Below, in pieces: positions 2,262 to 55,830 of a stretch of 64,000 bases of DNA. Each line of letters opens with the position of its first letter. Position 1 is the stretch's first letter. The notes beneath the pieces are model-generated. The model was given only the letters and a program-made list of their open reading frames with translations. It searched no databases and was not told the DNA's origin. Source of the stretch: Bacteroidota bacterium (GTDB lineage Bacteria > Bacteroidota > Ignavibacteria > Kapaibacteriales > UBA2268); the NCBI GenBank assembly GCA_021780815.1, contig JAJXYC010000009.1, positions 31,157 through 95,156 on the forward strand, written 5' to 3'. The position numbers were made by a program, and so were the translations under genes.

Positions 2262-4250
2262 TTATAAACAACTATCTTGAATTCTTTTTAAAGTTTCGTA
2301 AACATTAGATTTTAAGTGAATAAATTCGTCAATGCCTAAATTTTGATATTCATCAACTTTATCTTCTGGGAAACCAGATAAAATAATAAAAGAAGAAGGA
2401 TTTTTCTTTTTTATTAAAGGGACAAGTTTGGGGACAATAGTTTCATATTTAACATCAGAAGAGCAAATCGCTATAATATTAAAAGGATTATTCTCATCTT
2501 CACTTAAAAAGTATTGATTTGCTTCTTGTAAATTTGTAAAAATTGGACTATTTGTTATTTTAAATCCACCTATGCCCATGAAGTCATTAGCAAAATCGTT
2601 ACGTGGTTTCCATTCATTTAAATCACCGAAGTTAAATAAAAGTATATTAGGGAAATCCCCGTGTTTAGATTTAAATTTCAAGGCTTTATTTCGTAATTTT
2701 TCAAAATCTGATGCAAATCGTACTAATTGCAAAGGTGGTATAACAAATGCTTTTTGTTTATACATTATATTTTTTCCATTGCTAAAATGGTAGCCAATAT
2801 CTTTTTTGGGAGGTGCCTCTTCAACATAAGCATATTTATTTGTACCAACTAGAATCTGTTTTCTTGTTTTATAATGCTGTTTTTGTATTCCTGCGATAAA
2901 GTTCAACTCAGTTTGAATATTGCCATTTGTAATATTATCTAAAAACCCACCGTCTTTTTCAGTTGTTTGTATTTTATCCCAAGTTTTTTGAATAATTTCA
3001 GAAGTGAGTTCATCAACAAAATAAGAGCCGGCAACGGGGTCAATAGTATCAAGTAAATGTGCTTCATGAAGTAGGACTAATTGAGTGTTGCGAGCAATTC
3101 GACGAGAGAACTCATTTACAATGCCATAAGCAAAATCGAAATTAGAAACCTCAATACTATTTGCATTTCCCAAAATAGCCGCTAATGTTTCAACTGTTCC
3201 TCTCAAAATATTTACCCAAGGGTCAAATATAGTTTTATTTCTTAAAGAAGTTGCACAATGTATTTGCATATTGCAATTTTGTTCATCAGCACCATATTCT
3301 TTTATAATTTTAGCCCAGATAAAACGAGCGGCACGCAATTTAGCAATTTCCATAAAGAAATTAGAACTAACGCTAAAAGAAAAACGAATAGTTCTTATAA
3401 TCTCATTAATATTTAATCCTCTTGCAAGCAATTGATTTATTGTTTCAATAGCATAAGTAAAAGTAAAAGCAAGTTCTTGAACAGCGCTTGCACCCGCATT
3501 ATGGAATAAACTTCCATTAATAGTTATTATTCCAAAATTAGAATATTCTTCGTTAAATTGTTTAATGACTTTTGCCAGTAGATTATAAAGTTGCGAAATT
3601 GGTTTTGCAGAGCCACCATTGACTAATACTTCACTAAGTATATCAGAGCCTAAATTTCCGAATATTTTATTTTTGTTATAAATTTTAGTAGAAATATAAG
3701 AATCAAAGAGGAGAGCAAATTCAAAGAAAAAATCACCTGAATTGAAGTAAATTGGGTATTTTGTTAAATCAACTCCTTCAAATGCTTGTTGAAAAGCAAC
3801 AAGATTATTTAACTTTAAACCACAATCAACACTTTCATCTGAAAACTGCTGGTATTCATTTCTATTAATAAAGACATTAATAGCATCTTGTCCAGATTGT
3901 AAATCGTTGATTAATGCATCATTAAACATTTGTGGTGCATAATAAGGAATTATTTGGGCTATTTCCCATTTGTTTTTGATATAACCTGCCGCAGAATTTC
4001 CCCGTAAATATGGTTCAAATCCAGGGAAATTTACAAAGTCTTTTACAAAATTTTGTGAATCGATTAAATTATAAATTGGTTTTAAAATAATTTCTTCATA
4101 AGTATCAGTCATTAATTTTTTTTCAAAAGGAGAACCTTTGAGGGATTTGATAGATTCTTCTTTCCATTCTTCATAAGTAGGTTTGGGAAATTCATTAAAA
4201 TTAATTTTGTCAGGAATGTTCATTTTAGCCTCTGCATAATTTGAATTCAA
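2262..4250 (-). CDS. mutA: Methylmalonyl-CoA mutase small (beta) subunit
   Basis: 662 aa and directly upstream of mutB on the same strand. Shares the MCM fold motif [19 protein letters not shown] but lacks a B12-binding tail. Typical mutA-mutB arrangement. Confidence 0.8.
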   Translation of the reverse strand: MNSNYAEAKMNIPDKINFNEFPKPTYEEWKEESIKSLKGSPFEKKLMTDTYEEIILKPIYNLIDSQNFVKDFVNFPGFEPYLRGNSAAGYIKNKWEIAQIIPYYAPQMFNDALINDLQSGQDAINVFINRNEYQQFSDESVDCGLKLNNLVAFQQAFEGVDLTKYPIYFNSGDFFFEFALLFDSYISTKIYNKNKIFGNLGSDILSEVLVNGGSAKPISQLYNLLAKVIKQFNEEYSNFGIITINGSLFHNAGASAVQELAFTFTYAIETINQLLARGLNINEIIRTIRFSFSVSSNFFMEIAKLRAARFIWAKIIKEYGADEQNCNMQIHCATSLRNKTIFDPWVNILRGTVETLAAILGNANSIEVSNFDFAYGIVNEFSRRIARNTQLVLLHEAHLLDTIDPVAGSYFVDELTSEIIQKTWDKIQTTEKDGGFLDNITNGNIQTELNFIAGIQKQHYKTRKQILVGTNKYAYVEEAPPKKDIGYHFSNGKNIMYKQKAFVIPPLQLVRFASDFEKLRNKALKFKSKHGDFPNILLFNFGDLNEWKPRNDFANDFMGIGGFKITNSPIFTNLQEANQYFLSEDENNPFNIIAICSSDVKYETIVPKLVPLIKKKNPSSFIILSGFPEDKVDEYQNLGIDEFIHLKSNVYETLKRIQDSCL

Positions 4251-49694: not shown

Positions 49695-51248
49695 ATGGCT
49701 GACATTAGTGGTATTTCAAGTTCTTCTTCTTCGAGTTCTACTCAATTAGACCAACTTGTAAATGCATATTTGCAAACTCAACAGCCTCAAATTGATACTT
49801 TGAATCAAAAGAAATCGGATTTGCAAACTACACAAACCTTTTATAATAATGTTTATACAAAATTAAATTCGTTAATTTCAAACCTTGATACTTTTGGTGA
49901 TTATAACGTAGCAAATAATACGGCTACTTTTACTAAAACCAACACGATTGATGCTTCTTTTGGCACAAAATCTGTTACAAGTTCTAAAACTGATGTAATT
50001 ACCGCTACTGCGACAAATGATGCAGTATTATCAACTATGAGTGTTCGTGTTGATAGACTTGCTTCTAATGATATTTTGATTTCTGACCAAATTAATTTAA
50101 ATGATACTTCTCGTATTGCAAATTATAATTTAAATACTGCAGGAGACCATAAATTTGATATTTCTGTGAACGGTGTTACTAAAACTATTACTGTTTCGCT
50201 CACTGGAACTGAAACAAATGAAGATATTTTAAAGAAAATTGCAAATGCAGTTAACCAAACAACTGATATTAATGTAAATGCCGCTTATATTAAAGATACA
50301 TCATCAACAGGGCGTATTACTTTTACTGCAAAAGATACTGGAAGTAGCAATAATGTTGTTATTTCTGGGACCGATTCTATTTTAAGCTATTTAGGGTTAA
50401 ACAATACTACTTCCAACGGTGATAGAACTCTTGCTACTGATACAACTGCCGGTTATATGAAATCAAACGCAAGTGATTTAGATGCAAAATTAAATGTAAA
50501 TGGAATTAATATTTATAGAGGTTCAAACACAATTTCAGATGTTTTAACTGGGGTTACACTGAATTTACTTAAACCGCAAGAAACAACAGAACAGCCTGTT
50601 ACACTTACTACAAGTGTTAATACAAATTCTGTTAAAGATATGATAACTACTTTTCTTTCAAATTTAAATGATATTACAAGCTTAATTAATAACACTGATA
50701 AATCACTTGTTAGAAGTGAAAGTTCAATTCAGCAATTAAAATATAACATCCGTTCAATAGGTTCATATAGAGTTGCTTCAATAACTGATGCAAATTCTCC
50801 GCAATATTTATCGGATATTGGGATTACAGTAGATAGTAATGGATTATTTAGTGTTAGTGATACAACAAAGTTAGAAAGCTATTTGAAGGATAATCCGCAA
50901 AAAGTTGCTAATTTATTTACTGCTCCTGATGGAGTAATAAGTCAAGTTAATAGCTTTATATATAACTTGCAAGGGACTAATGGATTTATTGCTCAAAGAA
51001 ATTCTTCTTTGACTCAACAAATTCAAAGTACAGACGATAGATTAAAAGAGACGCAAGATAAAATTAATACGCAAGCCGATAATATGAGGAAACAATATAC
51101 AACACTTTTGCAAACGTATTACGAAGCAATGGCACAATATAATTCTTACAGTGCATTTAATGGAACGACATCAAGTTCATCAAGTTCATCAAGTTCATCA
51201 AGTTCATTAAGTTCATTAAGTTCATCTAGTAGTTTAAGTGGTTATTAA
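49695..51248 (+). CDS. fliD: Flagellar filament cap protein FliD (hook-associated protein 2) with poly-Ser termini
   Basis: 517 aa. N-terminal LDQLVNAYLQTQQPQIDTLNQKKSDLQTTQTFYNNVYTKL and C-terminal coiled-coil FliD patterns. S8 run near the N-terminus and S13(LSS)2 tail at the C-terminus. Confidence 0.75.
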   Translation: MADISGISSSSSSSSTQLDQLVNAYLQTQQPQIDTLNQKKSDLQTTQTFYNNVYTKLNSLISNLDTFGDYNVANNTATFTKTNTIDASFGTKSVTSSKTDVITATATNDAVLSTMSVRVDRLASNDILISDQINLNDTSRIANYNLNTAGDHKFDISVNGVTKTITVSLTGTETNEDILKKIANAVNQTTDINVNAAYIKDTSSTGRITFTAKDTGSSNNVVISGTDSILSYLGLNNTTSNGDRTLATDTTAGYMKSNASDLDAKLNVNGINIYRGSNTISDVLTGVTLNLLKPQETTEQPVTLTTSVNTNSVKDMITTFLSNLNDITSLINNTDKSLVRSESSIQQLKYNIRSIGSYRVASITDANSPQYLSDIGITVDSNGLFSVSDTTKLESYLKDNPQKVANLFTAPDGVISQVNSFIYNLQGTNGFIAQRNSSLTQQIQSTDDRLKETQDKINTQADNMRKQYTTLLQTYYEAMAQYNSYSAFNGTTSSSSSSSSSSSSLSSLSSSSSLSGY

Positions 51249-52051: not shown

Positions 52052-52318
52052 ATGGAAGTAAAATCAATCAACAAACAAAAAGCAGTTATCCAGTCGGGTG
52101 TTGCTGATAAGAAAAAAACTAAAAGCACTGACGATGCAAAAGAACCTCCTACATCCCAAGTTACTGATACTTTTGAGCAAACCCCTGATTTGACACAACT
52201 TAAACCTGTTATGGATAAACTTCGCTCAGGTTATTTTGATAAACCAGAAGTGCTACAAAAGTTAGCAAGTATTCTTGATGAGAAGTTCCCGCCCGAAATG
52301 CTGAATAAAGTCGAATAA
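52052..52318 (+). CDS. flgM: Anti-sigma-28 factor FlgM-like protein
   Basis: 88 aa. C-terminal LKPVMDKLRSGYFDKPEVLQKLASIL resembles the FlgM sigma-28-binding helix region. Confidence 0.5.
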   Translation: MEVKSINKQKAVIQSGVADKKKTKSTDDAKEPPTSQVTDTFEQTPDLTQLKPVMDKLRSGYFDKPEVLQKLASILDEKFPPEMLNKVE

Positions 52319-52352
52319 AGTTTTTCGTTTTTAACTTTCTTAAAAAATAGTA

Positions 52353-52381
52353 AAGGTTGTCTTACAAGACAGCCTTTTTTA
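52353..52381 (+). terminator. Rho-independent terminator closing the flagellar late operon
   Basis: GGTTGTCTT-ACAA-GACAGCC stem followed by T6ATTCTTTCTTTTTC. Confidence 0.65.
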
Positions 52382-52464
52382 TTCTTTCTTTTTCTAAAAG
52401 GGACATTCCGATTGATTTATCAAATTCAATTTAATTTTTATAATTTATTTTAAAAATATTTTTT

Positions 52465-55400
52465 TTACTGCTTTAAGAAGCCATATTCATAGACTTTGGG
52501 TTCGATTTTGCGTGCTAAGATTTTTAATTTATCTCGGAGATTGCCGATTAAATTCATGTATTTTTCATCTTCGCTTTTATTGTTCATCTTTCCTTTTTCG
52601 TTTCGACCTTGGAAATACTCACGGATATCGTATAGTGAGGCATTAACATTATAACCACCCCGTCTTGCTTCGCAATCCACCCCTCCGGTGGAGGGGAATG
52701 TCTGACTATGATAATATTTCCAAAGTTCCCGACCAGCATCGAAAACAGCTTCGGCTTCTGCGGAAAAGATTAGTTTTTCATTTTCTTTATTTAATTGATT
52801 GTTATTGGAAAACACCCCTTGCGTCCCCTCTAAAAGAGGGGAATTATTTGAGAACACCCCTTGCGTCCCCTCTAAAAGAGGGGAATTATTTGAGAACACC
52901 CCTTGCGTCCCCTCTAAAAGAGGGGAATTTTCTTCTTCCCCTCTCGTAGAGGGGTCAGGGGTGTTATCTATAAAATCAGGGGTGTTATCTGTTGTAACAT
53001 AATCCTTATTTTTACCTTGTAATATAGTTCTCATTTTAATTATTTCATCTTCAAGAAATTTCAAAATTCCATTAAGATTATTCATAACATCAGAAAATGT
53101 AAAATGATAGACAATTAATCCCAAACCTTTTAAATAATTATCCCTTTCAAAATCATATTCAATTTTATCATTATGACTACTTCCATCAATTTCAACAACA
53201 AATCCTAAATCTTTACAATAAAAATCAACAATAAAATTTCCAACAATTTTTTGTCGGTCAAAATCCAAACCTAAATATTTTTTATTTTTTACTTGTTCCC
53301 AAAATTTTACTTCAGCAATATTACCTGATTTCCTTAATTCTTTTGCTCTTTCAGTGAGTTTCTTATTATAAGGTAATTCATACCATTTTGGGATATATTT
53401 ATTATAATATTTTAATTGATTATTATTGGAGAACACCCCTTGCGTCTCGTCTGAAAGAGGGGAATTATTGGAGAACACCCCTTTTGTCTCGTCTGAAAGA
53501 GGGGAAATATTGGAAAACACCCCTTTTGTCTCGTCTGAAAGAGGGGAATTATTGGAGAACACCCCTTTAGTCCCCTCTAAAAGAGGGGAATTATTGGAGA
53601 ACACCCCTTGCGTCCCCTCTAAAAGAGGGGAATTCTCTTCTTCCCCTCTCGTAGAGGGGTTAGGGGTGTTATCTATAAAATCAGGGGTGTTATCTATTGT
53701 AAATAAATTTTCTTCTTCTGCTTCTCGCTTTATTTTGCCTTTGATGAAATTAGTCATAAAATTACTTCCAAATTTTTCTTTGGCATTTACTTCACTTTCT
53801 GTAAATGGGAGCCAGTGATTTGTTCCTTCTTTGCTAGTAATTTTATTTTGTCCGTGGAATAAAGTGAAGGCTAAGCAATCATTTTGAAATTCTTTATCTT
53901 CTTTCCAACCATCATTTGGAAATAAAAATTGGTCTCTATCATTTAACCAAGTTGCTTCGATACAATGGCGAACAGAAAAATAAATAACACCTTCAATAAT
54001 ATTAACAGCACATAAATTATAATAATTTACATGTCTTGTTCCATACCTTACTGTTAAACATAAGAATTTATTGTTTTGAAAATCTGGTGCTGGATTCTCA
54101 ATATATCCAATTCCATTTTCAATTTTATTGTCAAATTTCTTAATCCATTTATTAATACTTTGAGGTAATTCACCATAGAAATTTTTTAATCCAATATATT
54201 TTTCTTCTTTATTATAAATATCGCAACTGATATTAGTGATTTTCTCTTTAATTTTTAAATCCCAGATAGTAAATCCGATTGGGAAACTTCCTTTCACATT
54301 GTCGAATGTGTTTGCGGGAACTATAAATCCTTTCATAAATTTTGCTTGAAAGTAATTTTTGAAATTGATAAAATTTGTTCCTTGAATAAATTTTAATGTT
54401 GAAAATTGGGCAAGGAATGATTCAGGCATTTTATCAATTATTCTTGCCATAAATAAAGCAAAAATTTCATTTGAAGCATTTCCAATTTTAGATTTATATA
54501 TTTCATTACTTTTATTTTGGTTTGCAACTCCTGATTTGTTCTCTCCTGTACCAGTTACTGTTTTAGCAGTTGTTGCTTCGGCATAAGGAGGATTAATGTA
54601 AATAACTAATTTCTTTCTTTTCTCGGGATTATTAATAATTTCGTAAAGTGGTTTGGGTAATTTATCAAAATCATCATTCAGGAAATCGAATTGGAAAACG
54701 TGTTCTTCGAGTAAATTAGCACCGTTCTTGATTCTGTCCTTCATAACTTCGACATCTTGCTTGTCGAGAGTGGAAGCCCAAATATTATATTTATTTGTTA
54801 AGCCGTTAAGCAAGTTTCCCGTACCAGCGGCACAGTCCCAAATATAATAATCGTCCTGCCAATCTTCGCCGAGAACGTCTGTTAAATACTTTTGCGAAAG
54901 TTCAACCCAAATTTGCGGAGTAAAGAAGCTGCCTTTCCGTTCTCTCACGTCTTGTGGCACGAGTAAATCACGCCTTTCGACAATATAATCCCAATATTCC
55001 TCTTTTGGAGGGCGGTCGTATTTATTCCAAAACTGATTATGAGCGGTTTGACCGTCATTGAAAGAAGTTGATTTAGAACTGAACATCCCTGATTCGTCGA
55101 TTTTCCTGTCTAATTCATAATGGTCTTTTTTTAGTAAGACGAAAAGTTTTTCTTTGAGGGTTTCGTTTTCGAGAGAAAGCAAATCAGCAAGGTAAAAATC
55201 GCCGTCGATGATGCCTGTTTTCTTGGCAATTTCCCAATTAACGGCAATTGTGGGCTTTACGTTCTGAAGCCACTTATTATAAATCACCATAAAATTATTT
55301 TTGTCGATTTTAGTTTTTGTAATCCCGAACCTACCGACAATAAAATTATTCTTAATGAACTTAATAAGGTCTTTTTCGTCCTGTTCGTAAGTAAAGAGCA

Positions 55401-55830
55401 GAGCTTTACTGTCGATGATGGACTTAACTTTCTCATGAACAAACTTAAATTCCTTCGTATCGTAATTAGAAGGAGTAACGTTCCAATTAAAATCGTTCAA
55501 ATAGAAAACATCGTGAATTTCATTATAAGGAACGAAAGCGATTTTATCGGAATCGAAAGCACCGAGAAAGGCAGGAGGCAAATGTTTATCGAAAGTTCTC
55601 GCTTTACCGATAGTAAGGATAAGCTGAACTAAAGATTTGTAGATGTCGGAAGAGCCTTTTTTAGCTTCAGCCCAAAGAAGAGATTCTTGTTCGAAAAGTT
55701 CCTGTTTGTTTTGGAACATTCGGACACAAAAATCAACATTACCAATAATAGAAGTGCAGTCATATTGCCAAAAAAAATCTTTTGCAACTTTGTTTTTGAG
55801 TTCTTCTTCTTTGATATTAAAATAATCCAT
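52465..55830 (-). CDS. MmeI-family (type IIL/IIG) single-chain restriction-modification enzyme-like protein with in-frame DUF559 (Vsr-like endonuclease) insertion flanked by tandem-repeat linkers
   Basis: 1121 aa. N-terminal segment DFCVRMF...LLWAEAKKGSSDI resembles the MmeI-family PD-ExK motif (D...hhxExK). Gamma-class MTase motifs X (GSFFTPQIWVE), I (DCAAGTGNLLNGL) and IV (VIYINPPYAEA) follow, then a TRD-like region. Residues approx 735-820 and 960-1020 are 14-aa repeats NSPLLEGTQGVFSN, and between them is a complete DUF559 domain (AKELRKSGNIAEVKFWEQV...FIVDFYCKDLGFVVEIDGSSHNDK...). Confidence 0.7.
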   Translation of the reverse strand: MDYFNIKEEELKNKVAKDFFWQYDCTSIIGNVDFCVRMFQNKQELFEQESLLWAEAKKGSSDIYKSLVQLILTIGKARTFDKHLPPAFLGAFDSDKIAFVPYNEIHDVFYLNDFNWNVTPSNYDTKEFKFVHEKVKSIIDSKALLFTYEQDEKDLIKFIKNNFIVGRFGITKTKIDKNNFMVIYNKWLQNVKPTIAVNWEIAKKTGIIDGDFYLADLLSLENETLKEKLFVLLKKDHYELDRKIDESGMFSSKSTSFNDGQTAHNQFWNKYDRPPKEEYWDYIVERRDLLVPQDVRERKGSFFTPQIWVELSQKYLTDVLGEDWQDDYYIWDCAAGTGNLLNGLTNKYNIWASTLDKQDVEVMKDRIKNGANLLEEHVFQFDFLNDDFDKLPKPLYEIINNPEKRKKLVIYINPPYAEATTAKTVTGTGENKSGVANQNKSNEIYKSKIGNASNEIFALFMARIIDKMPESFLAQFSTLKFIQGTNFINFKNYFQAKFMKGFIVPANTFDNVKGSFPIGFTIWDLKIKEKITNISCDIYNKEEKYIGLKNFYGELPQSINKWIKKFDNKIENGIGYIENPAPDFQNNKFLCLTVRYGTRHVNYYNLCAVNIIEGVIYFSVRHCIEATWLNDRDQFLFPNDGWKEDKEFQNDCLAFTLFHGQNKITSKEGTNHWLPFTESEVNAKEKFGSNFMTNFIKGKIKREAEEENLFTIDNTPDFIDNTPNPSTRGEEENSPLLEGTQGVFSNNSPLLEGTKGVFSNNSPLSDETKGVFSNISPLSDETKGVFSNNSPLSDETQGVFSNNNQLKYYNKYIPKWYELPYNKKLTERAKELRKSGNIAEVKFWEQVKNKKYLGLDFDRQKIVGNFIVDFYCKDLGFVVEIDGSSHNDKIEYDFERDNYLKGLGLIVYHFTFSDVMNNLNGILKFLEDEIIKMRTILQGKNKDYVTTDNTPDFIDNTPDPSTRGEEENSPLLEGTQGVFSNNSPLLEGTQGVFSNNSPLLEGTQGVFSNNNQLNKENEKLIFSAEAEAVFDAGRELWKYYHSQTFPSTGGVDCEARRGGYNVNASLYDIREYFQGRNEKGKMNNKSEDEKYMNLIGNLRDKLKILARKIEPKVYEYGFLKQ
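52788..52985. repeat. Repeat module B: three tandem 42-bp units plus a 70-bp terminal segment
   Basis: Units at 52808, 52850 and 52892 read GAGAACACCCCTTGCGTCCCCTCTAAAAGAGGGGAATTATTT, each with the perfect palindrome CCCCTCTAAAAGAGGGG. The terminal segment has a second palindrome CCCCTCTCGTAGAGGGG and a duplicated TCAGGGGTGTTATCT. Confidence 0.9.
52986..53408 (-). other. In-frame DUF559 (Vsr/restriction-endonuclease-like fold) domain cassette lying between the two repeat modules
   Basis: The translated segment YNKYIPKWYELPYNKKLTERAKELRKSG...LGLIVYHFTFSDVMNNLNGILKFLEDEI matches the DUF559 family across its full length. Bounded by near-identical direct repeats. Confidence 0.6.
53409..53705. 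repeat. Repeat module A: five tandem 42-bp units plus the same terminal segment, about 95% identical to module B
   Basis: Units at 53429, 53471, 53513, 53555 and 53597. Units 1-3 carry a degenerate palindrome (TCTCGTCTGAAAGAGGGG), units 4-5 the intact one. Both modules are preceded by the same TTTAATTGATTRTTATTG. Confidence 0.9.

What the first reader, a model, noticed from the sequence alone, without database searches (positions are those of the whole stretch)
52788..53705. Duplicated arrays of 42-bp tandem repeats with perfect 17-bp palindromes inside a coding region
Two direct-repeat modules (52788-52985 with 3 units, 53409-53705 with 5 units) are about 95% identical, including the same 18-bp lead-in and a 70-bp terminal segment with its own palindrome (CCCCTCTCGTAGAGGGG) and a duplicated TCAGGGGTGTTATCT. 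Each 42-bp unit carries CCCCTCTAAAAGAGGGG, a strong hairpin in DNA or RNA. It is unusual to find a hairpin-forming minisatellite inside an ORF with a copy number that differs between the two modules. Unit length is a multiple of 3, so expansion or contraction is frame-neutral and would only change the linker length (NSPLLEGTQGVFSN repeats). Possible roles are a recombination substrate for gain or loss of the DUF559 cassette, a programmed length-variable linker, or a REP/MITE-like element that happens to be translatable. The GC-rich palindromes stand out in an AT-rich genome.
Basis: seen in the sequence. Interest (0 to 1): 0.7.

Follow-up and report, generated by a model that had tools for sequence, protein, structure and literature searches.

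The report
Translatable hairpin repeats flanking DUF559 nuclease
The 42-bp repeats are multiplied end-pieces of a small, probably selfish DNA cassette encoding a DUF559 (Vsr-like) nuclease; the cassette sits in frame inside a restriction/methylase-like gene, and similarly bounded DUF559 cassettes lie inside other proteins in metagenome contigs of widely differing GC content.

Summary

The 42-bp unit ("U") is a short form of a conserved two-hairpin DNA motif:
- AATT-CCCCTC(C)nnn(G)GAGGGG-TG-[variable hairpin 2]-CGGGGTGGT.

In 80 metagenome loci carrying related DUF559 genes (GC 27-64%):
- The motif lies in forward orientation upstream and inverted downstream, so it forms terminal inverted repeats.
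- It is about 20-fold enriched next to DUF559.
- Synonymous codon positions inside it are frozen, and hairpin 2 shows compensatory changes.
- In 27 loci the frame stays open at least 150 aa on both sides, and in 10 more on one side. Pfam-confirmed hosts: HsdR, HsdS, Mod-type, Eco57I-type and Type ISP enzymes, MetRS, AspRS.

A covariance model built from loci other than the window and its strain relatives finds 11 copies in the 64-kb window. All lie in this one gene.

Two near-identical genomes carry other alleles:
- Unit numbers are 5/5/2 and 3/2/2.
- One has a second DUF559 copy.
- One has lost that copy, leaving a solo module.
- Both have a 2.4-kb DUF3644 segment between 1-kb DUF559+module repeats.

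Best reading: a REP/MITE-like but translatable element family associated with a Vsr-like nuclease. The arrays arise by slippage or recombination and mediate cassette gain and loss. That the nuclease drives mobility is inferred. I found no description of it in the literature library.

The parts
52465..55830 (-). Host ORF of 1121 aa. It belongs to a conserved family of about 810 aa with a PD-ExK-like motif (ESLLWAEAKKG), an AdoMet-binding-like motif (WDCAAGTGNLL) and an NPPY motif. It carries the insertion in its variable C-terminal linker.
   Evidence: ORF list. Of the 120 best homologues listed, 117 are 778-875 aa, 60-77% identical, and lack DUF559. The motifs were read directly from the sequence. 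There are no Pfam, PADLOC or PDB sequence hits for the host part.
53409..53705 (-). Module A, on the N-terminal side of DUF559. On the coding strand it reads U' (inverted unit, with the outer GATAACACCCCT duplicated) followed by 5 U units. The two units next to U' are intact; the three nearest DUF559 have a broken palindrome.
   Evidence: TRF array. Covariance-model hits: U' at 53638-53672 (+), E 1.4e-7; U at 53598-53635 and 53556-53593 (-), E about 1e-8; degenerate units at 53514-53551, 53472-53509 and 53430-53467, E 0.01-0.3. Predicted disordered.
52990..53412 (-). DUF559 (Vsr-like PD-(D/E)XK nuclease) segment, aa 807-947, in frame and without its own start codon. The Pfam match maps to 53059-53361.
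   Evidence: Pfam PF04480, E 8.4e-26. All residues invariant across 15 family members are retained. pLDDT about 95. Fold matches: 3hrl (TM 0.91) and the catalytic domain of homing endonuclease I-Bth0305I, 3r3p_B (TM 0.77). PDB profile hit to 3hrl.
52788..52989 (-). Module B, on the C-terminal side of DUF559: U' followed by 3 intact U units. It is a direct repeat of module A.
   Evidence: TRF array. 94% identity to module A. Covariance-model hits: U' at 52933-52967 (+), E 1.5e-7; U at 52893-52930, 52851-52888 and 52809-52846 (-), E 2e-9 to 5e-9. The shared module boundaries run from TTACAAyAGATAAC to AATCAATTAAA.
52652..52701 (-). Solo full-length U element with two hairpins (CCCCTCC-ACC-GGAGGGG and TTGC-GAA-GCAA, followed by CGGGGTGGT). 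It is in frame in the C-terminal tail and encodes FPSTGGVDCEARRGGY.
   Evidence: Best covariance-model hit in the window, E 8.7e-11. The site is empty in homologues L088, L090 and L062, and filled in L002 and L089 (three tandem copies, two of them degenerate, in L089).
52465..52787 (-). Conserved C-terminal tail of the host protein. It is the 'KQ' type, which equals the second (downstream) tail copy in the related genome L102.
   Evidence: Alignments.

Best explanation
The two arrays are the amplified ends of a DUF559 nuclease cassette inserted in frame into the variable linker of a restriction/methylase-like gene.

Anatomy (shown):
- The building block is a structured DNA motif, U, of about 38-50 nt: AATT, then hairpin 1 (CCCCTC(C)nnn(G)GAGGGG), then TG, then a variable second hairpin, then (C)GGGGTG(G/T)T.
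- In DUF559 cassettes in the 80 metagenome loci, U lies upstream in forward orientation and downstream as its reverse complement (U'). Together they form terminal inverted repeats.
- Both orientations read through without stop codons. U gives NSPPxEGW...GVV or FPSxGGV...GRGG. U' gives TPPxEGN or NHPALRAPLQRRG.
- In the window each flank is a foldback module: U' followed by several tandem U units. The architecture is therefore [U'-U5]-DUF559-[U'-U3], plus one solo U further downstream in the same gene.
- The repeat peptides are predicted to be disordered. This would explain how a cassette can sit inside a protein as a separately folded domain on floppy linkers without destroying the host ORF.
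- The directly repeated modules (with DUF559) are substrates for recombination that deletes or duplicates the cassette and neighbouring DNA. This is shown by comparing near-identical genomes.

Mechanism (inferred):
- The hairpin-forming 42-bp units expand and contract by replication slippage or unequal recombination.
- The DUF559 nuclease recognises or cleaves the U structure, or an empty target site, and so promotes copying or transposition of the cassette. The relationship would resemble REP sequences and their RAYT transposase, or MITEs and their parent transposon.
- The [U'-U] module corresponds to the abutted right and left ends of the element. It is what integration or excision of a circular DUF559-U'-U form by recombination with a resident module would leave behind.
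For: Membership of the motif family:
- A covariance model (R1) was built from 53 distinct motif copies, none from the window or from its strain relatives L001 and L102; nearly all come from the 80 metagenome loci, a few from the homologue loci L002, L003 and L089. It hits all 8 units, both U' copies and the solo U in the window, with E from 9e-11 to 0.3. Nothing else in the 64 kb scores better than E 1.6.

Association with DUF559, in 80 metagenome loci of GC 27-64%:
- Perfect GC-rich hairpins occur at 5.96 per kb within 200 bp of the DUF559 core, against 0.30 per kb elsewhere in the loci.
- 177 of these 186 flank hairpins have the stem CCCCTC.
- 62 of 80 loci have one upstream, 71 of 80 downstream, and 55 have both.

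Inverted orientation:
- The nearest upstream copy is forward in 45 loci and reversed in 12. The nearest downstream copy is reversed in 62 and forward in 2.
- The commonest architecture is +[D]- (22 loci). Window-like -+[D]-+ variants occur in about 6 loci, and tandem runs also occur.
- The flank consensus is AATT..TG upstream and cA..AAT downstream.
- In the window, U and the reverse complement of U' match at 30 of 33 aligned bases.

Constraint at the nucleotide level:
- In motifs defined by peptide alone, the Pro codon is CCT in 99 of 102 (27% in DUF559 cores) and the Gly codon is GGG in 92 of 102 (16% in cores).
- The same hairpin is read in all three frames.
- Hairpin 2 is 98.6% paired, with changes on both sides at 3 pairs (19, 10 and 10 of 53 sequences). 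Slid-register controls show at most 1 such change. There are almost no G-U pairs.

In-frame residence:
- 27 of 80 loci stay open for at least 150 aa on both sides, and 10 more on one side.
- Hosts confirmed by Pfam: HsdR, N6_N4 methyltransferase, Eco57I-type, Type ISP, HsdS, MetRS and AspRS.
- Solo U or U'-U copies lie in frame elsewhere in these contigs.

Movement between hosts:
- The window's DUF559 has the 'KWYE' junction subtype and is 69-70% identical to copies in Mod-type hosts. The three other copies in its own host family are the 'RNTKNY' subtype and 60-67% identical.
- 17 of 38 nearest neighbours lie in a different host class.

Structural alleles in near-identical genomes:
- Unit numbers are 5/5/2 (module A) and 3/2/2 (module B).
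- L102 has a second, identical DUF559 copy inside a 1041-bp direct repeat (98.9%).
- L001 lacks that second copy and retains a solo module at the same position.
- The window lacks the 2.4-kb tail-DUF3644 segment altogether.

Protein level:
- The repeat peptides have pLDDT below 50 and no predicted secondary structure. DUF559 has pLDDT about 95.
- Fold matches are 3hrl, the catalytic domain of the homing endonuclease I-Bth0305I, and Vsr.
Against: - No activity of DUF559 on U has been shown. No empty-versus-filled pair has a base-precise boundary or an identifiable target-site duplication.
- In the 64-kb window, and in the stretches of the two related contigs that were read, every copy lies in or next to this one gene. 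Dispersal within this genome is therefore not shown.
- The exact 20-mer is at chance level in 185,579 representative genomes.
- The 80 loci were selected by similarity to this DUF559. The hairpin statistics were partly defined with the CCCCTC regular expression, although hairpin 2, the codon test and the covariance-model scan do not depend on it.
- Unit-number differences between short-read assemblies could be partly assembly artefacts.
- Recurrent insertion at the same permissive linker could reflect selection on what the protein tolerates rather than targeting.
- The predominance of restriction-modification hosts fits equally well with DUF559 being a useful accessory nuclease domain.
Confidence: 0.65

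Rival explanations
1. DUF559 is a genuine accessory nuclease domain recruited by restriction-modification enzymes. The repeats are selected as flexible Pro/Gly/Ser/Glu-rich protein linkers, and the palindromes are a by-product.
For: - Most in-frame hosts are restriction-modification proteins.
- The DUF559 copy in the window retains every residue invariant across 15 family members.
- The repeat peptides are predicted to be disordered, as linkers would be.
- The ORF is intact in all three related genomes.
- 'DUF559 domain-containing protein' is listed among products enriched at programmed inversion targets, together with methylases (PMC9881135).
Against: - Synonymous positions are frozen: CCT in 99/102 and GGG in 92/102.
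- The same DNA hairpin is translated in different frames in different loci.
- Hairpin 2 shows compensatory base changes.
- Copies also sit in MetRS and AspRS, and many are stand-alone small ORFs with the same flanks.
- 117 of the 120 best homologues of the host lack the domain.
- The DUF559 tree is incongruent with host class.
Confidence: 0.12
2. The U hairpins are REP/MITE-like elements moved by some other, trans-acting enzyme (for example a RAYT-like or IS200/IS605-type transposase). DUF559 is only a passenger, or a preferred landing site.
For: - Solo U and U'-U copies exist without DUF559 nearby.
- Subterminal hairpins are typical of HUH-transposase substrates (general knowledge).
- No nuclease activity of DUF559 on these sites is known.
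Against: - Hairpins are about 20-fold enriched within 200 bp of DUF559, and their inverted orientation is conserved across 80 loci spanning GC 27-64%.
- Symmetric terminal inverted repeats and the near absence of G-U pairs fit recognition of double-stranded or cruciform DNA better than strand-specific single-strand hairpins.
- No transposase showed up in the gene lists and ORFs inspected for a handful of loci. This was not surveyed systematically.
Confidence: 0.13
3. The arrays are an ordinary intragenic minisatellite or contingency locus that tunes the restriction-modification enzyme by changing linker length. They have no connection to mobility.
For: - Unit number differs between near-identical genomes: 5/5/2 and 3/2/2.
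- The unit is 42 bp, so changes are frame-neutral.
Against: - The unit belongs to a motif family that bounds DUF559 genes in many unrelated hosts.
- Frame-neutral changes cannot switch the gene on or off.
- The peptides are predicted to be unstructured.
- The same arrays also occur at stand-alone DUF559 genes.
Confidence: 0.05
4. The element acts at the RNA level. U and U' pair in the mRNA and loop out the DUF559 coding segment, for RNase III-type processing, translational control or bypassing.
For: - U and U' are complementary, and the modules fold strongly as RNA (z = -6.7).
- In stand-alone copies U lies just upstream of the start codon.
Against: - Hairpin 2 has almost no G-U pairs (2 of 583 cells), and copies occur in both orientations relative to transcription. 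This fits pairing on both DNA strands.
- There is no Rfam family match; only spurious miRNA-precursor hits appear.
- DUF559 is kept in frame with the host in many loci, which would be unnecessary if it were removed from the mRNA.
Confidence: 0.05

Closest known systems
Rickettsia palindromic elements (RPEs) and other intragenic MITEs
   Same: [quoted passage not shown] They are translated into extra peptide segments that the host protein tolerates (review PMC10969869). Solo U and U'-U copies behave this way.
   Different: - RPEs are about 100-150 bp, confined to Rickettsia and have no associated enzyme gene.
- U is 38-50 nt and occurs in contigs of very different GC content (27-64%).
- U forms the inverted ends of a nuclease gene and is tandemly amplified.
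REP sequences / REPINs and their RAYT transposases
   Same: A short GC-rich hairpin motif flanks its associated enzyme gene in inverted orientation and also occurs as solo or paired copies elsewhere. This is the same logic as U-DUF559-U' plus U'-U modules.
   Different: - RAYTs are HUH/Y1 (IS200/IS605-like) transposases, whereas DUF559 is a Vsr-like PD-(D/E)XK nuclease.
- REPs are extragenic, whereas U is typically intragenic and translatable in both orientations.
Vsr-like (EDxHD) homing endonucleases such as I-Bth0305I
   Same: - The catalytic fold is related: 3r3p_B has TM 0.77 and probability 1.0.
- Both occur sporadically at the same site of conserved host genes (PMC2677866, PMC3239194).
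   Different: - Those enzymes reside in group I introns or inteins, or between split-intein gene halves, and are removed by splicing.
- Here there is no intron or intein signature.
- The cassette stays in the protein and is bounded by structured inverted repeats.
Intragenic tandem repeats / minisatellites in bacterial surface and restriction-modification genes
   Same: The unit length is a multiple of 3, and copy number varies between strains.
   Different: The units are palindromic and constrained at the nucleotide level. They belong to a motif family tied to a nuclease gene.

Membership tests
DUF559 / Vsr-like PD-(D/E)XK nuclease (PF04480) | Significant match to the family profile over its full length | tested here: met
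   Pfam E 8.4e-26, profile positions 2-102 of 109. NCBIfam DUF559 model PRK09767.1 is matched at E 2.6e-14, but the score of 53 bits is below its 218-bit equivalog cut-off. PDB profile hit to 3hrl at E 2.9e-21.
DUF559 / Vsr-like PD-(D/E)XK nuclease (PF04480) | Vsr-like fold with conserved acidic and histidine core residues | tested here: met
   The model has pLDDT about 95. Foldseek: 3hrl TM 0.91, 3r3p_B 0.77, 1vsr 0.51. The residues invariant in alignment A2 (D51, E62, D64, H68 and others) are present in the window copy.
MITE / RPE-like in-frame palindromic element | Short non-coding-capacity element with terminal inverted repeats or a foldback structure | tested here: met
   The U'-U module folds as a long hairpin, z = -8.2. 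Inverted-repeat arms are reported. U and the reverse complement of U' match at 30/33.
MITE / RPE-like in-frame palindromic element | Many dispersed copies within one genome | tested here: inconclusive
   All 11 copies in the 64-kb window lie in one gene. In other contigs, solo copies lie in other ORFs. No complete genome could be surveyed, and the exact 20-mer is at chance level in representative genomes.
MITE / RPE-like in-frame palindromic element | In-frame insertion that leaves the host ORF open | tested here: met
   Window ORF of 1121 aa. 27 of 80 loci are open for at least 150 aa on both sides. Empty versus filled alleles at the third site.
MITE / RPE-like in-frame palindromic element | Target-site duplication at the element ends | tested here: inconclusive
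   The outer AATT is conserved, but no pair of closely related empty and filled alleles allowed a base-precise boundary.
REP / RAYT system | Hairpin repeats flank the associated gene in inverted orientation | tested here: met
   The nearest upstream copy is forward in 45 loci and the nearest downstream copy is reversed in 62.
REP / RAYT system | The associated gene is an HUH/Y1 (IS200/IS605-like) transposase | tested here: not met
   The gene is DUF559, a PD-(D/E)XK nuclease.
REP / RAYT system | Extragenic location | tested here: not met
   Copies lie inside ORFs and are translated.
Homing endonuclease gene (intron-, intein-borne or free-standing) | Residence in a self-splicing intron or an intein | tested here: not met
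   No group I or II intron family was matched in 52300-53900. There is no intein or Hint domain in the protein. The junction sequences vary between loci.
Homing endonuclease gene (intron-, intein-borne or free-standing) | Sporadic presence at one site of a conserved host gene | tested here: met
   3 of the 120 best homologues listed carry DUF559, plus L062, all in the same linker. 12 or 13 HsdR loci carry it at one site.
Homing endonuclease gene (intron-, intein-borne or free-standing) | The enzyme cleaves the empty allele and is copied in by repair | not testable with these tools
   This needs biochemistry or genetic crosses.
Phase-variable (contingency) repeat locus | Repeat-number change shifts the frame or the promoter spacing to switch expression | tested here: not met
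   The unit is 42 bp (14 codons). All alleles remain in frame.
Type IIG-like restriction-modification enzyme (host gene) | PD-(D/E)XK nuclease motif plus a gamma-class N6-adenine methyltransferase motif I and NPPY in one polypeptide | tested here: inconclusive
   The motifs are visible in the sequence (ESLLWAEAKKG, WDCAAGTGNLL, INPPYAEA). No Pfam, NCBIfam, PADLOC or PDB sequence match covers the host part.

The most novel reading that the evidence does not exclude
U plus DUF559 is a previously undescribed, widespread class of mobile element. A Vsr-like nuclease gene is bounded by structured terminal inverted repeats that can be translated in either orientation. The element can therefore live inside protein-coding genes, including essential aminoacyl-tRNA synthetases, as an extra domain on disordered linkers, with no need for intron or intein splicing. 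Solo U and U'-U copies would be its MITE-like derivatives, and the nuclease would recognise the hairpin or cruciform ends. This would give the large DUF559 family a concrete function.
Probability: 0.35. Interest if true: 0.9.

Novelty: new variant of a known kind. Interest (0 to 1): 0.75.

Why it matters
DUF559 is a large bacterial family with no assigned role. This analysis ties one clade of it to a precisely defined, covariation-supported DNA motif and to a repeatable gene architecture. It also links it to observed gain and loss events, which makes a function directly testable: nuclease against U hairpin or cruciform.

If the cassette is mobile, it would be a third way for a selfish nuclease gene to reside in a coding sequence without killing it. 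The two known ways are introns and inteins. This one would use ends that translate into harmless disordered linkers.

There are also practical consequences:
- Annotation: 'fusion' proteins such as HsdR-DUF559 or AspRS-DUF559, and odd P/G/E-rich peptide repeats, are explained.
- Assembly: these palindromic arrays break contigs and vary in copy number.
- Restriction-modification biology: the elements create recombination hot spots inside defence genes.

Tried and rejected
- A protein search with the translated repeat module (99 aa) returned nothing, not even the 98%-identical homologue. The likely cause is the compositional filter. One capped search was lost.
- An exact 20-mer scan of 185,579 representative genomes gave 4 single hits. 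Three look like ordinary terminators. One, in a Patescibacteria intergenic region (L005), resembles the short form of U. This gives no evidence of dispersal of the exact unit.
- Rfam returned only sub-threshold miRNA-precursor hits, which reflect the long foldback. No known RNA family matched.
- Viral contigs gave only 10 weak DUF559 relatives, mostly at contig ends. I did not follow these up.
- For the host protein, searches of Pfam, NCBIfam, PADLOC and PDB sequences found no family.
- An exact look-up of the window protein's contig found nothing on record, although the cluster table lists the protein as P0241 from NCBI.
- Seven literature searches (DUF559; Vsr-like homing endonucleases; in-frame palindromic elements; motif strings) found no description of hairpin-flanked DUF559 cassettes. 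The library is incomplete, so prior description elsewhere cannot be excluded.
- I rejected the idea that the window allele is a module B / module C recombinant. Its module B equals L001's module B plus one unit. The crossover that removed the DUF3644 segment lies in the repeat shared by the two gene-end copies.
Full report
**1. The observation**

Tandem Repeats Finder reports two arrays of period 42 at 52802-52929 (3.0 copies, 97% matches) and 53422-53634 (5.1 copies, 92% matches). A 195-nt stretch, 52803-52997, matches 53508-53702 at 94%. The pattern CCCCTC-N(1-9)-GAGGGG occurs 8 times in the window and never in 100 shuffles.

Both arrays lie inside one ORF, 52465..55830 on the minus strand (1121 aa). 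They flank a DUF559 domain (PF04480, E 8.4e-26, aa 824-924).

Three corrections are needed:
- Three of the five units of the upstream array carry a broken palindrome, CTCGTCTGAAAGAGGGG.
- A further solo copy lies at 52652-52701, outside the reported range.

The modules fold far better than shuffled sequence, with z = -8.2 as DNA and -6.7 as RNA. The inverted copy pairs with the adjacent unit to give a foldback of about 80 nt. Rfam offers only spurious miRNA-precursor hits.

**2. The host gene**

The 1121-aa protein belongs to a very large family: 8000 candidates were scored and all were significant. Of the 120 best listed, 117 are 778-875 aa and 60-77% identical, and they lack DUF559.

The alignment shows a conserved N-terminal region of about 715 aa, a hypervariable linker and a conserved C-terminal region of about 105 aa. 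The insertion sits in the linker.

The N-terminal region contains ESLLWAEAKKG, WDCAAGTGNLL and INPPYAEA. I read these as a PD-ExK nuclease motif plus N6-adenine methyltransferase motifs I and IV, which suggests a Type IIG-like enzyme. This rests on reading the sequence only. Pfam, NCBIfam, PADLOC and PDB sequence searches find nothing for the host part.

Only three listed homologues carry DUF559: P0001, P0002 and P0120. One metagenome locus, L062, does too. In all of them it sits in the same linker.

**3. What the repeats are**

The closest relatives of this DUF559 (55-68% identity) are small ORFs annotated in diverse lineages, including Parcubacteria, Cloacimonadales, Francisella, Betaproteobacteria, Scalindua and Bacteroidetes. 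Their N- and C-terminal extensions carry the same kind of peptides as the window's repeats:
- N-terminal side: NSPSLKGWQAKPDGVV, FPSERGVPERRGV.
- C-terminal side: TPPLEGN, HPSTGGE, NHPALRAPLQGGE.

A metagenome scan with a DUF559-core alignment returned 80 loci with GC from 27 to 64%. In these loci:
- Perfect GC-rich hairpins occur at 5.96 per kb within 200 bp of the DUF559 core, against 0.30 per kb elsewhere.
- 177 of 186 flank hairpins have the stem CCCCTC, the same stem as in the window.
- 62 loci have one upstream, 71 downstream and 55 both.

The upstream consensus (AATT-CCCCTC..GAGGGG-TG) and the downstream consensus (cA-CCCCTC..GAGGGG-AAT) are reverse complements. After orienting every copy by its GGGGTG tail, the nearest upstream copy is forward in 45 loci and reversed in 12. 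The nearest downstream copy is reversed in 62 and forward in 2. The commonest architecture is +[DUF559]- (22 loci).

So these DUF559 genes carry terminal inverted repeats made of a motif I call U. Its order is AATT, hairpin 1, TG, a variable hairpin 2 and CGGGGTGGT.

The window's 42-bp unit is a short form of U in which hairpin 2 is reduced to ACGCAAG. Its 'terminal segment' is U'. The solo copy at 52652-52701 is a full two-hairpin U.

**4. The constraint is on the nucleic acid, not the peptide**

- In flank motifs defined purely as peptides ([ST]P[PLS]x1-2[EKRQ]G), the Pro codon is CCT in 99 of 102 cases (27% in DUF559 cores). The final Gly codon is GGG in 92 of 102 (16% in cores). The first codon ends in CC in 100 of 102.
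- The same hairpin is read in all three frames in different loci, giving for example NSPPxEGW or FPSxGGV.
- In 53 distinct 44-nt copies, hairpin 2 is 98.6% paired. Changes on both sides occur at three pairs (19, 10 and 10 sequences). The seventh pair of hairpin 1 switches C-G to T-A in 4 sequences. Slid-register controls show at most 1 such change.
- G-U pairs are almost absent: 2 of 583 cells. Together with the occurrence of copies in both orientations, this fits pairing on both DNA strands better than an RNA structure. That last point is an inference.

A covariance model built from these 53 copies contains no sequence from the window or its strain relatives L001 and L102. In the window it finds the solo U (E 8.7e-11), five intact units (E 2e-9 to 1e-8), both U' copies (E about 1e-7) and the three decayed units (E 0.01-0.3). 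Nothing else in the 64 kb scores better than E 1.6. The same model gives 276 hits at E <= 0.001 in the 331 kb of related loci.

**5. In-frame residence in many hosts**

The frame containing DUF559 stays open for at least 150 aa on both sides in 27 of 80 loci, and on one side in 10 more. Pfam confirms the following hosts:
- HsdR, with the insertion between HSDR_N and the SWI2/SNF2 ATPase. The same site recurs in 12 or 13 loci.
- N6_N4 methyltransferases.
- Eco57I-type and Type ISP enzymes.
- HsdS.
- Methionyl- and aspartyl-tRNA synthetases.

Solo U or U'-U copies also sit in frame at other positions and in other ORFs of these contigs. At the window's third site, homologues L088, L090 and L062 are empty (CAG CCC AAT ATC AAT GTA). 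The window, L002 and L089 are filled, and L089 has three tandem copies, two of them degenerate.

In the AlphaFold model of aa 690-1121:
- The two module peptides have pLDDT below 50 and no secondary structure.
- DUF559 is a confident separate domain (pLDDT about 95).
- The C-terminal tail is helical.
- The solo-U peptide is a low-confidence loop.

Fold search gives 3hrl (a DUF559 structure, TM 0.91), the catalytic domain of homing endonuclease I-Bth0305I (3r3p_B, TM 0.77, probability 1.0) and Vsr.

**6. Evidence for movement**

The window's DUF559 has the 'KWYE' junction type. It is most similar (69-70%) to copies in Mod-type methyltransferase hosts. The three other copies in its own host family have the 'RNTKNY' junction type and are 60-67% identical to it. 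Across the hosts that could be classified, 17 of 38 nearest neighbours lie in a different host class. This implies at least two independent acquisitions in the same linker and transfer between host genes.

**7. Structural alleles in near-identical genomes**

The 90%-identity cluster of the window protein contains proteins of 1121, 1107 and 1065 aa, plus fragments of 323 and 144 aa.

L102 (GCA_027401335.1) spans the whole locus. Outside the variable segment it is 99.99% and 100% identical to the window on the two sides. Its order is:
- prfA
- N-terminal host part, module A (2 units), DUF559, module B (2 units), tail of 'KE' type, stop
- DUF3644 gene
- spacer with a remnant of a DUF559 3' end
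- module C (2 units), a second DUF559 identical to the first, module B' (2 units), tail of 'KQ' type
- flagellar genes

The two gene-end copies form a 1041-bp direct repeat at 98.9% identity.

L001 matches the window at 99.96% over the 5,157 bp up to the variable region and L102 at 99.99% over 8,283 bp. It has module A with 5 units and module B with 2. At the second position it has no DUF559, only a solo three-unit module followed directly by the second tail.

The window has a single copy with 5 and 3 units and the 'KQ' tail, and no DUF3644.

Three kinds of change are therefore seen among close relatives:
- Unit-number change.
- Loss (or gain) of DUF559 that leaves one module.
- Loss (or gain) of a 2.4-kb segment between DUF559+module repeats.

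Module C of L001 is a mosaic of A-type and B-type units, which indicates exchange between modules.

Unit-number differences between close relatives recur in other loci: L008 versus L009, and L023 versus L033. A caveat applies: these are metagenome assemblies, and short tandem arrays can be mis-assembled. The duplicated tail is, however, seen independently in several contigs.

**8. Mechanism**

Shown:
- The anatomy: a structured motif used as inverted ends.
- Its tight and oriented association with DUF559.
- Its translatability, its in-frame residence in many hosts, and the recombination outcomes in related genomes.

Inferred:
- Units expand and contract by slippage or unequal exchange at hairpin-forming repeats.
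- DUF559 acts on U, or on empty targets, to promote copying or transposition.
- The [U'-U] module is the abutted right and left ends of the element. [U'-U]-DUF559-[U'-U] is what recombination between a circular DUF559-U'-U form and a resident solo module would produce, and excision would reverse it. The window-like architecture recurs in L044, L061, P0002 and others.

**9. Comparison with known systems**

- RPEs and intragenic MITEs share the in-frame palindromic insertion but have no associated enzyme (PMC10969869).
- REP/RAYT shares the arrangement of hairpins flanking their enzyme gene in inverted orientation, with solo copies elsewhere. It uses an HUH transposase and is extragenic.
- Vsr-like homing endonucleases share the fold and the sporadic site-specific distribution. 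They depend on introns or inteins (PMC2677866, PMC3239194).

The element fails a defining test for each of these families, so I do not file it under any of them. It works most like a REP/RAYT or MITE/transposon pair, adapted to coding sequence. I found no description of it in the held literature. That does not exclude one elsewhere.

**10. Verdict**

The finding is real and is not an isolated oddity. It is one locus of a widespread and apparently undescribed association between a two-hairpin, translatable DNA motif and DUF559 nucleases, and there is direct comparative evidence that the repeats mediate cassette gain and loss.

- Confidence in the structural interpretation is high.
- Confidence that DUF559 itself drives mobility is moderate.
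- Overall confidence in the explanation as stated is 0.65.
- Interest is 0.75.

Noticed in passing
L102 9203-10525 and L001 9329-10650 (absent from the window; the deletion or insertion point maps to window ~52465-52990): Two near-identical genomes carry a DUF3644 gene (327 aa) plus a second copy of the gene's 3' end between this gene and the flagellar cluster. The segment is bounded by a 1041-bp direct repeat (98.9%) made of DUF559, module and tail. The first tail ('KE' type) differs from the second ('KQ' type, as in the window) at a few sites. This looks like Campbell-type integration or excision, or a duplication.
   Followed up: partly
window 52465-55830 (-), and homologues P0003-P0119: The host protein family (~810 aa) is huge: 8000 candidates were all significant. 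It is 60-77% identical across Bacteroidota and other MAG lineages, yet has no Pfam, NCBIfam, PADLOC or PDB sequence match. It shows PD-ExK-like and NPPY motifs and often sits alone beside housekeeping genes (prfA, serS, purA). It may be an uncharacterised single-chain restriction-modification enzyme family.
   Followed up: partly
L086 2-1438 and L074 2034-4052: DUF559 with U flanks lies in frame inside an aspartyl-tRNA synthetase (before the GAD domain) and at the N-terminus of a methionyl-tRNA synthetase. The cassette is therefore tolerated in essential housekeeping genes, as inteins are.
   Followed up: partly
L055 ~3327-3640; L019 ~2816-3015; L023/L033; L056; L065: Other loci show long tandem runs of U or U' units: NHPAFQAPLQGRGM repeated at least 6 times, (I/T)SPPLE(E/G)Q(E/G)VV-type units repeated many times, and TTPHLE x9 versus x5 in two related contigs. 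Amplification and copy-number change of the end units are therefore general.
   Followed up: partly
L101 (Synechocystis sp. B12 plasmid CP101712.1, 35379-35846): In a finished plasmid, a more distant DUF559 (42% identity) splits a DUF1156 methyltransferase gene into two ORFs. It is flanked by a different GC-rich repeat type (LPSPVGEGPGVRP, SPVGEGLGVR). Other DUF559 clades may have their own hairpin ends.
   Followed up: partly
L005 4083-4115 (Patescibacteria SAG, after a yidC-like gene): An intergenic copy of the short form of the motif, TTCCCCTCTTTTAGAGGGGACAGGGGTGTG, with no DUF559 within 2 kb.
   Followed up: no
window 49695-51248 (+), tandem repeat at 51169-51239: The FliD-like protein has poly-serine tracts at both termini. 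The C-terminal tract is encoded by a 9-bp tandem repeat (CATCAAGTT, 6.9 copies, 94% matches).
   Followed up: no
alignment A3 (53 U copies), columns 24-34: Hairpin 2 nearly always closes a GNA-type triloop (GAA, GCA, AAA). It has almost no G-U pairs. GGGGTG occurs twice per unit (after hairpin 1 and after hairpin 2), so tandem arrays carry many G4 tracts on one strand.
   Followed up: no
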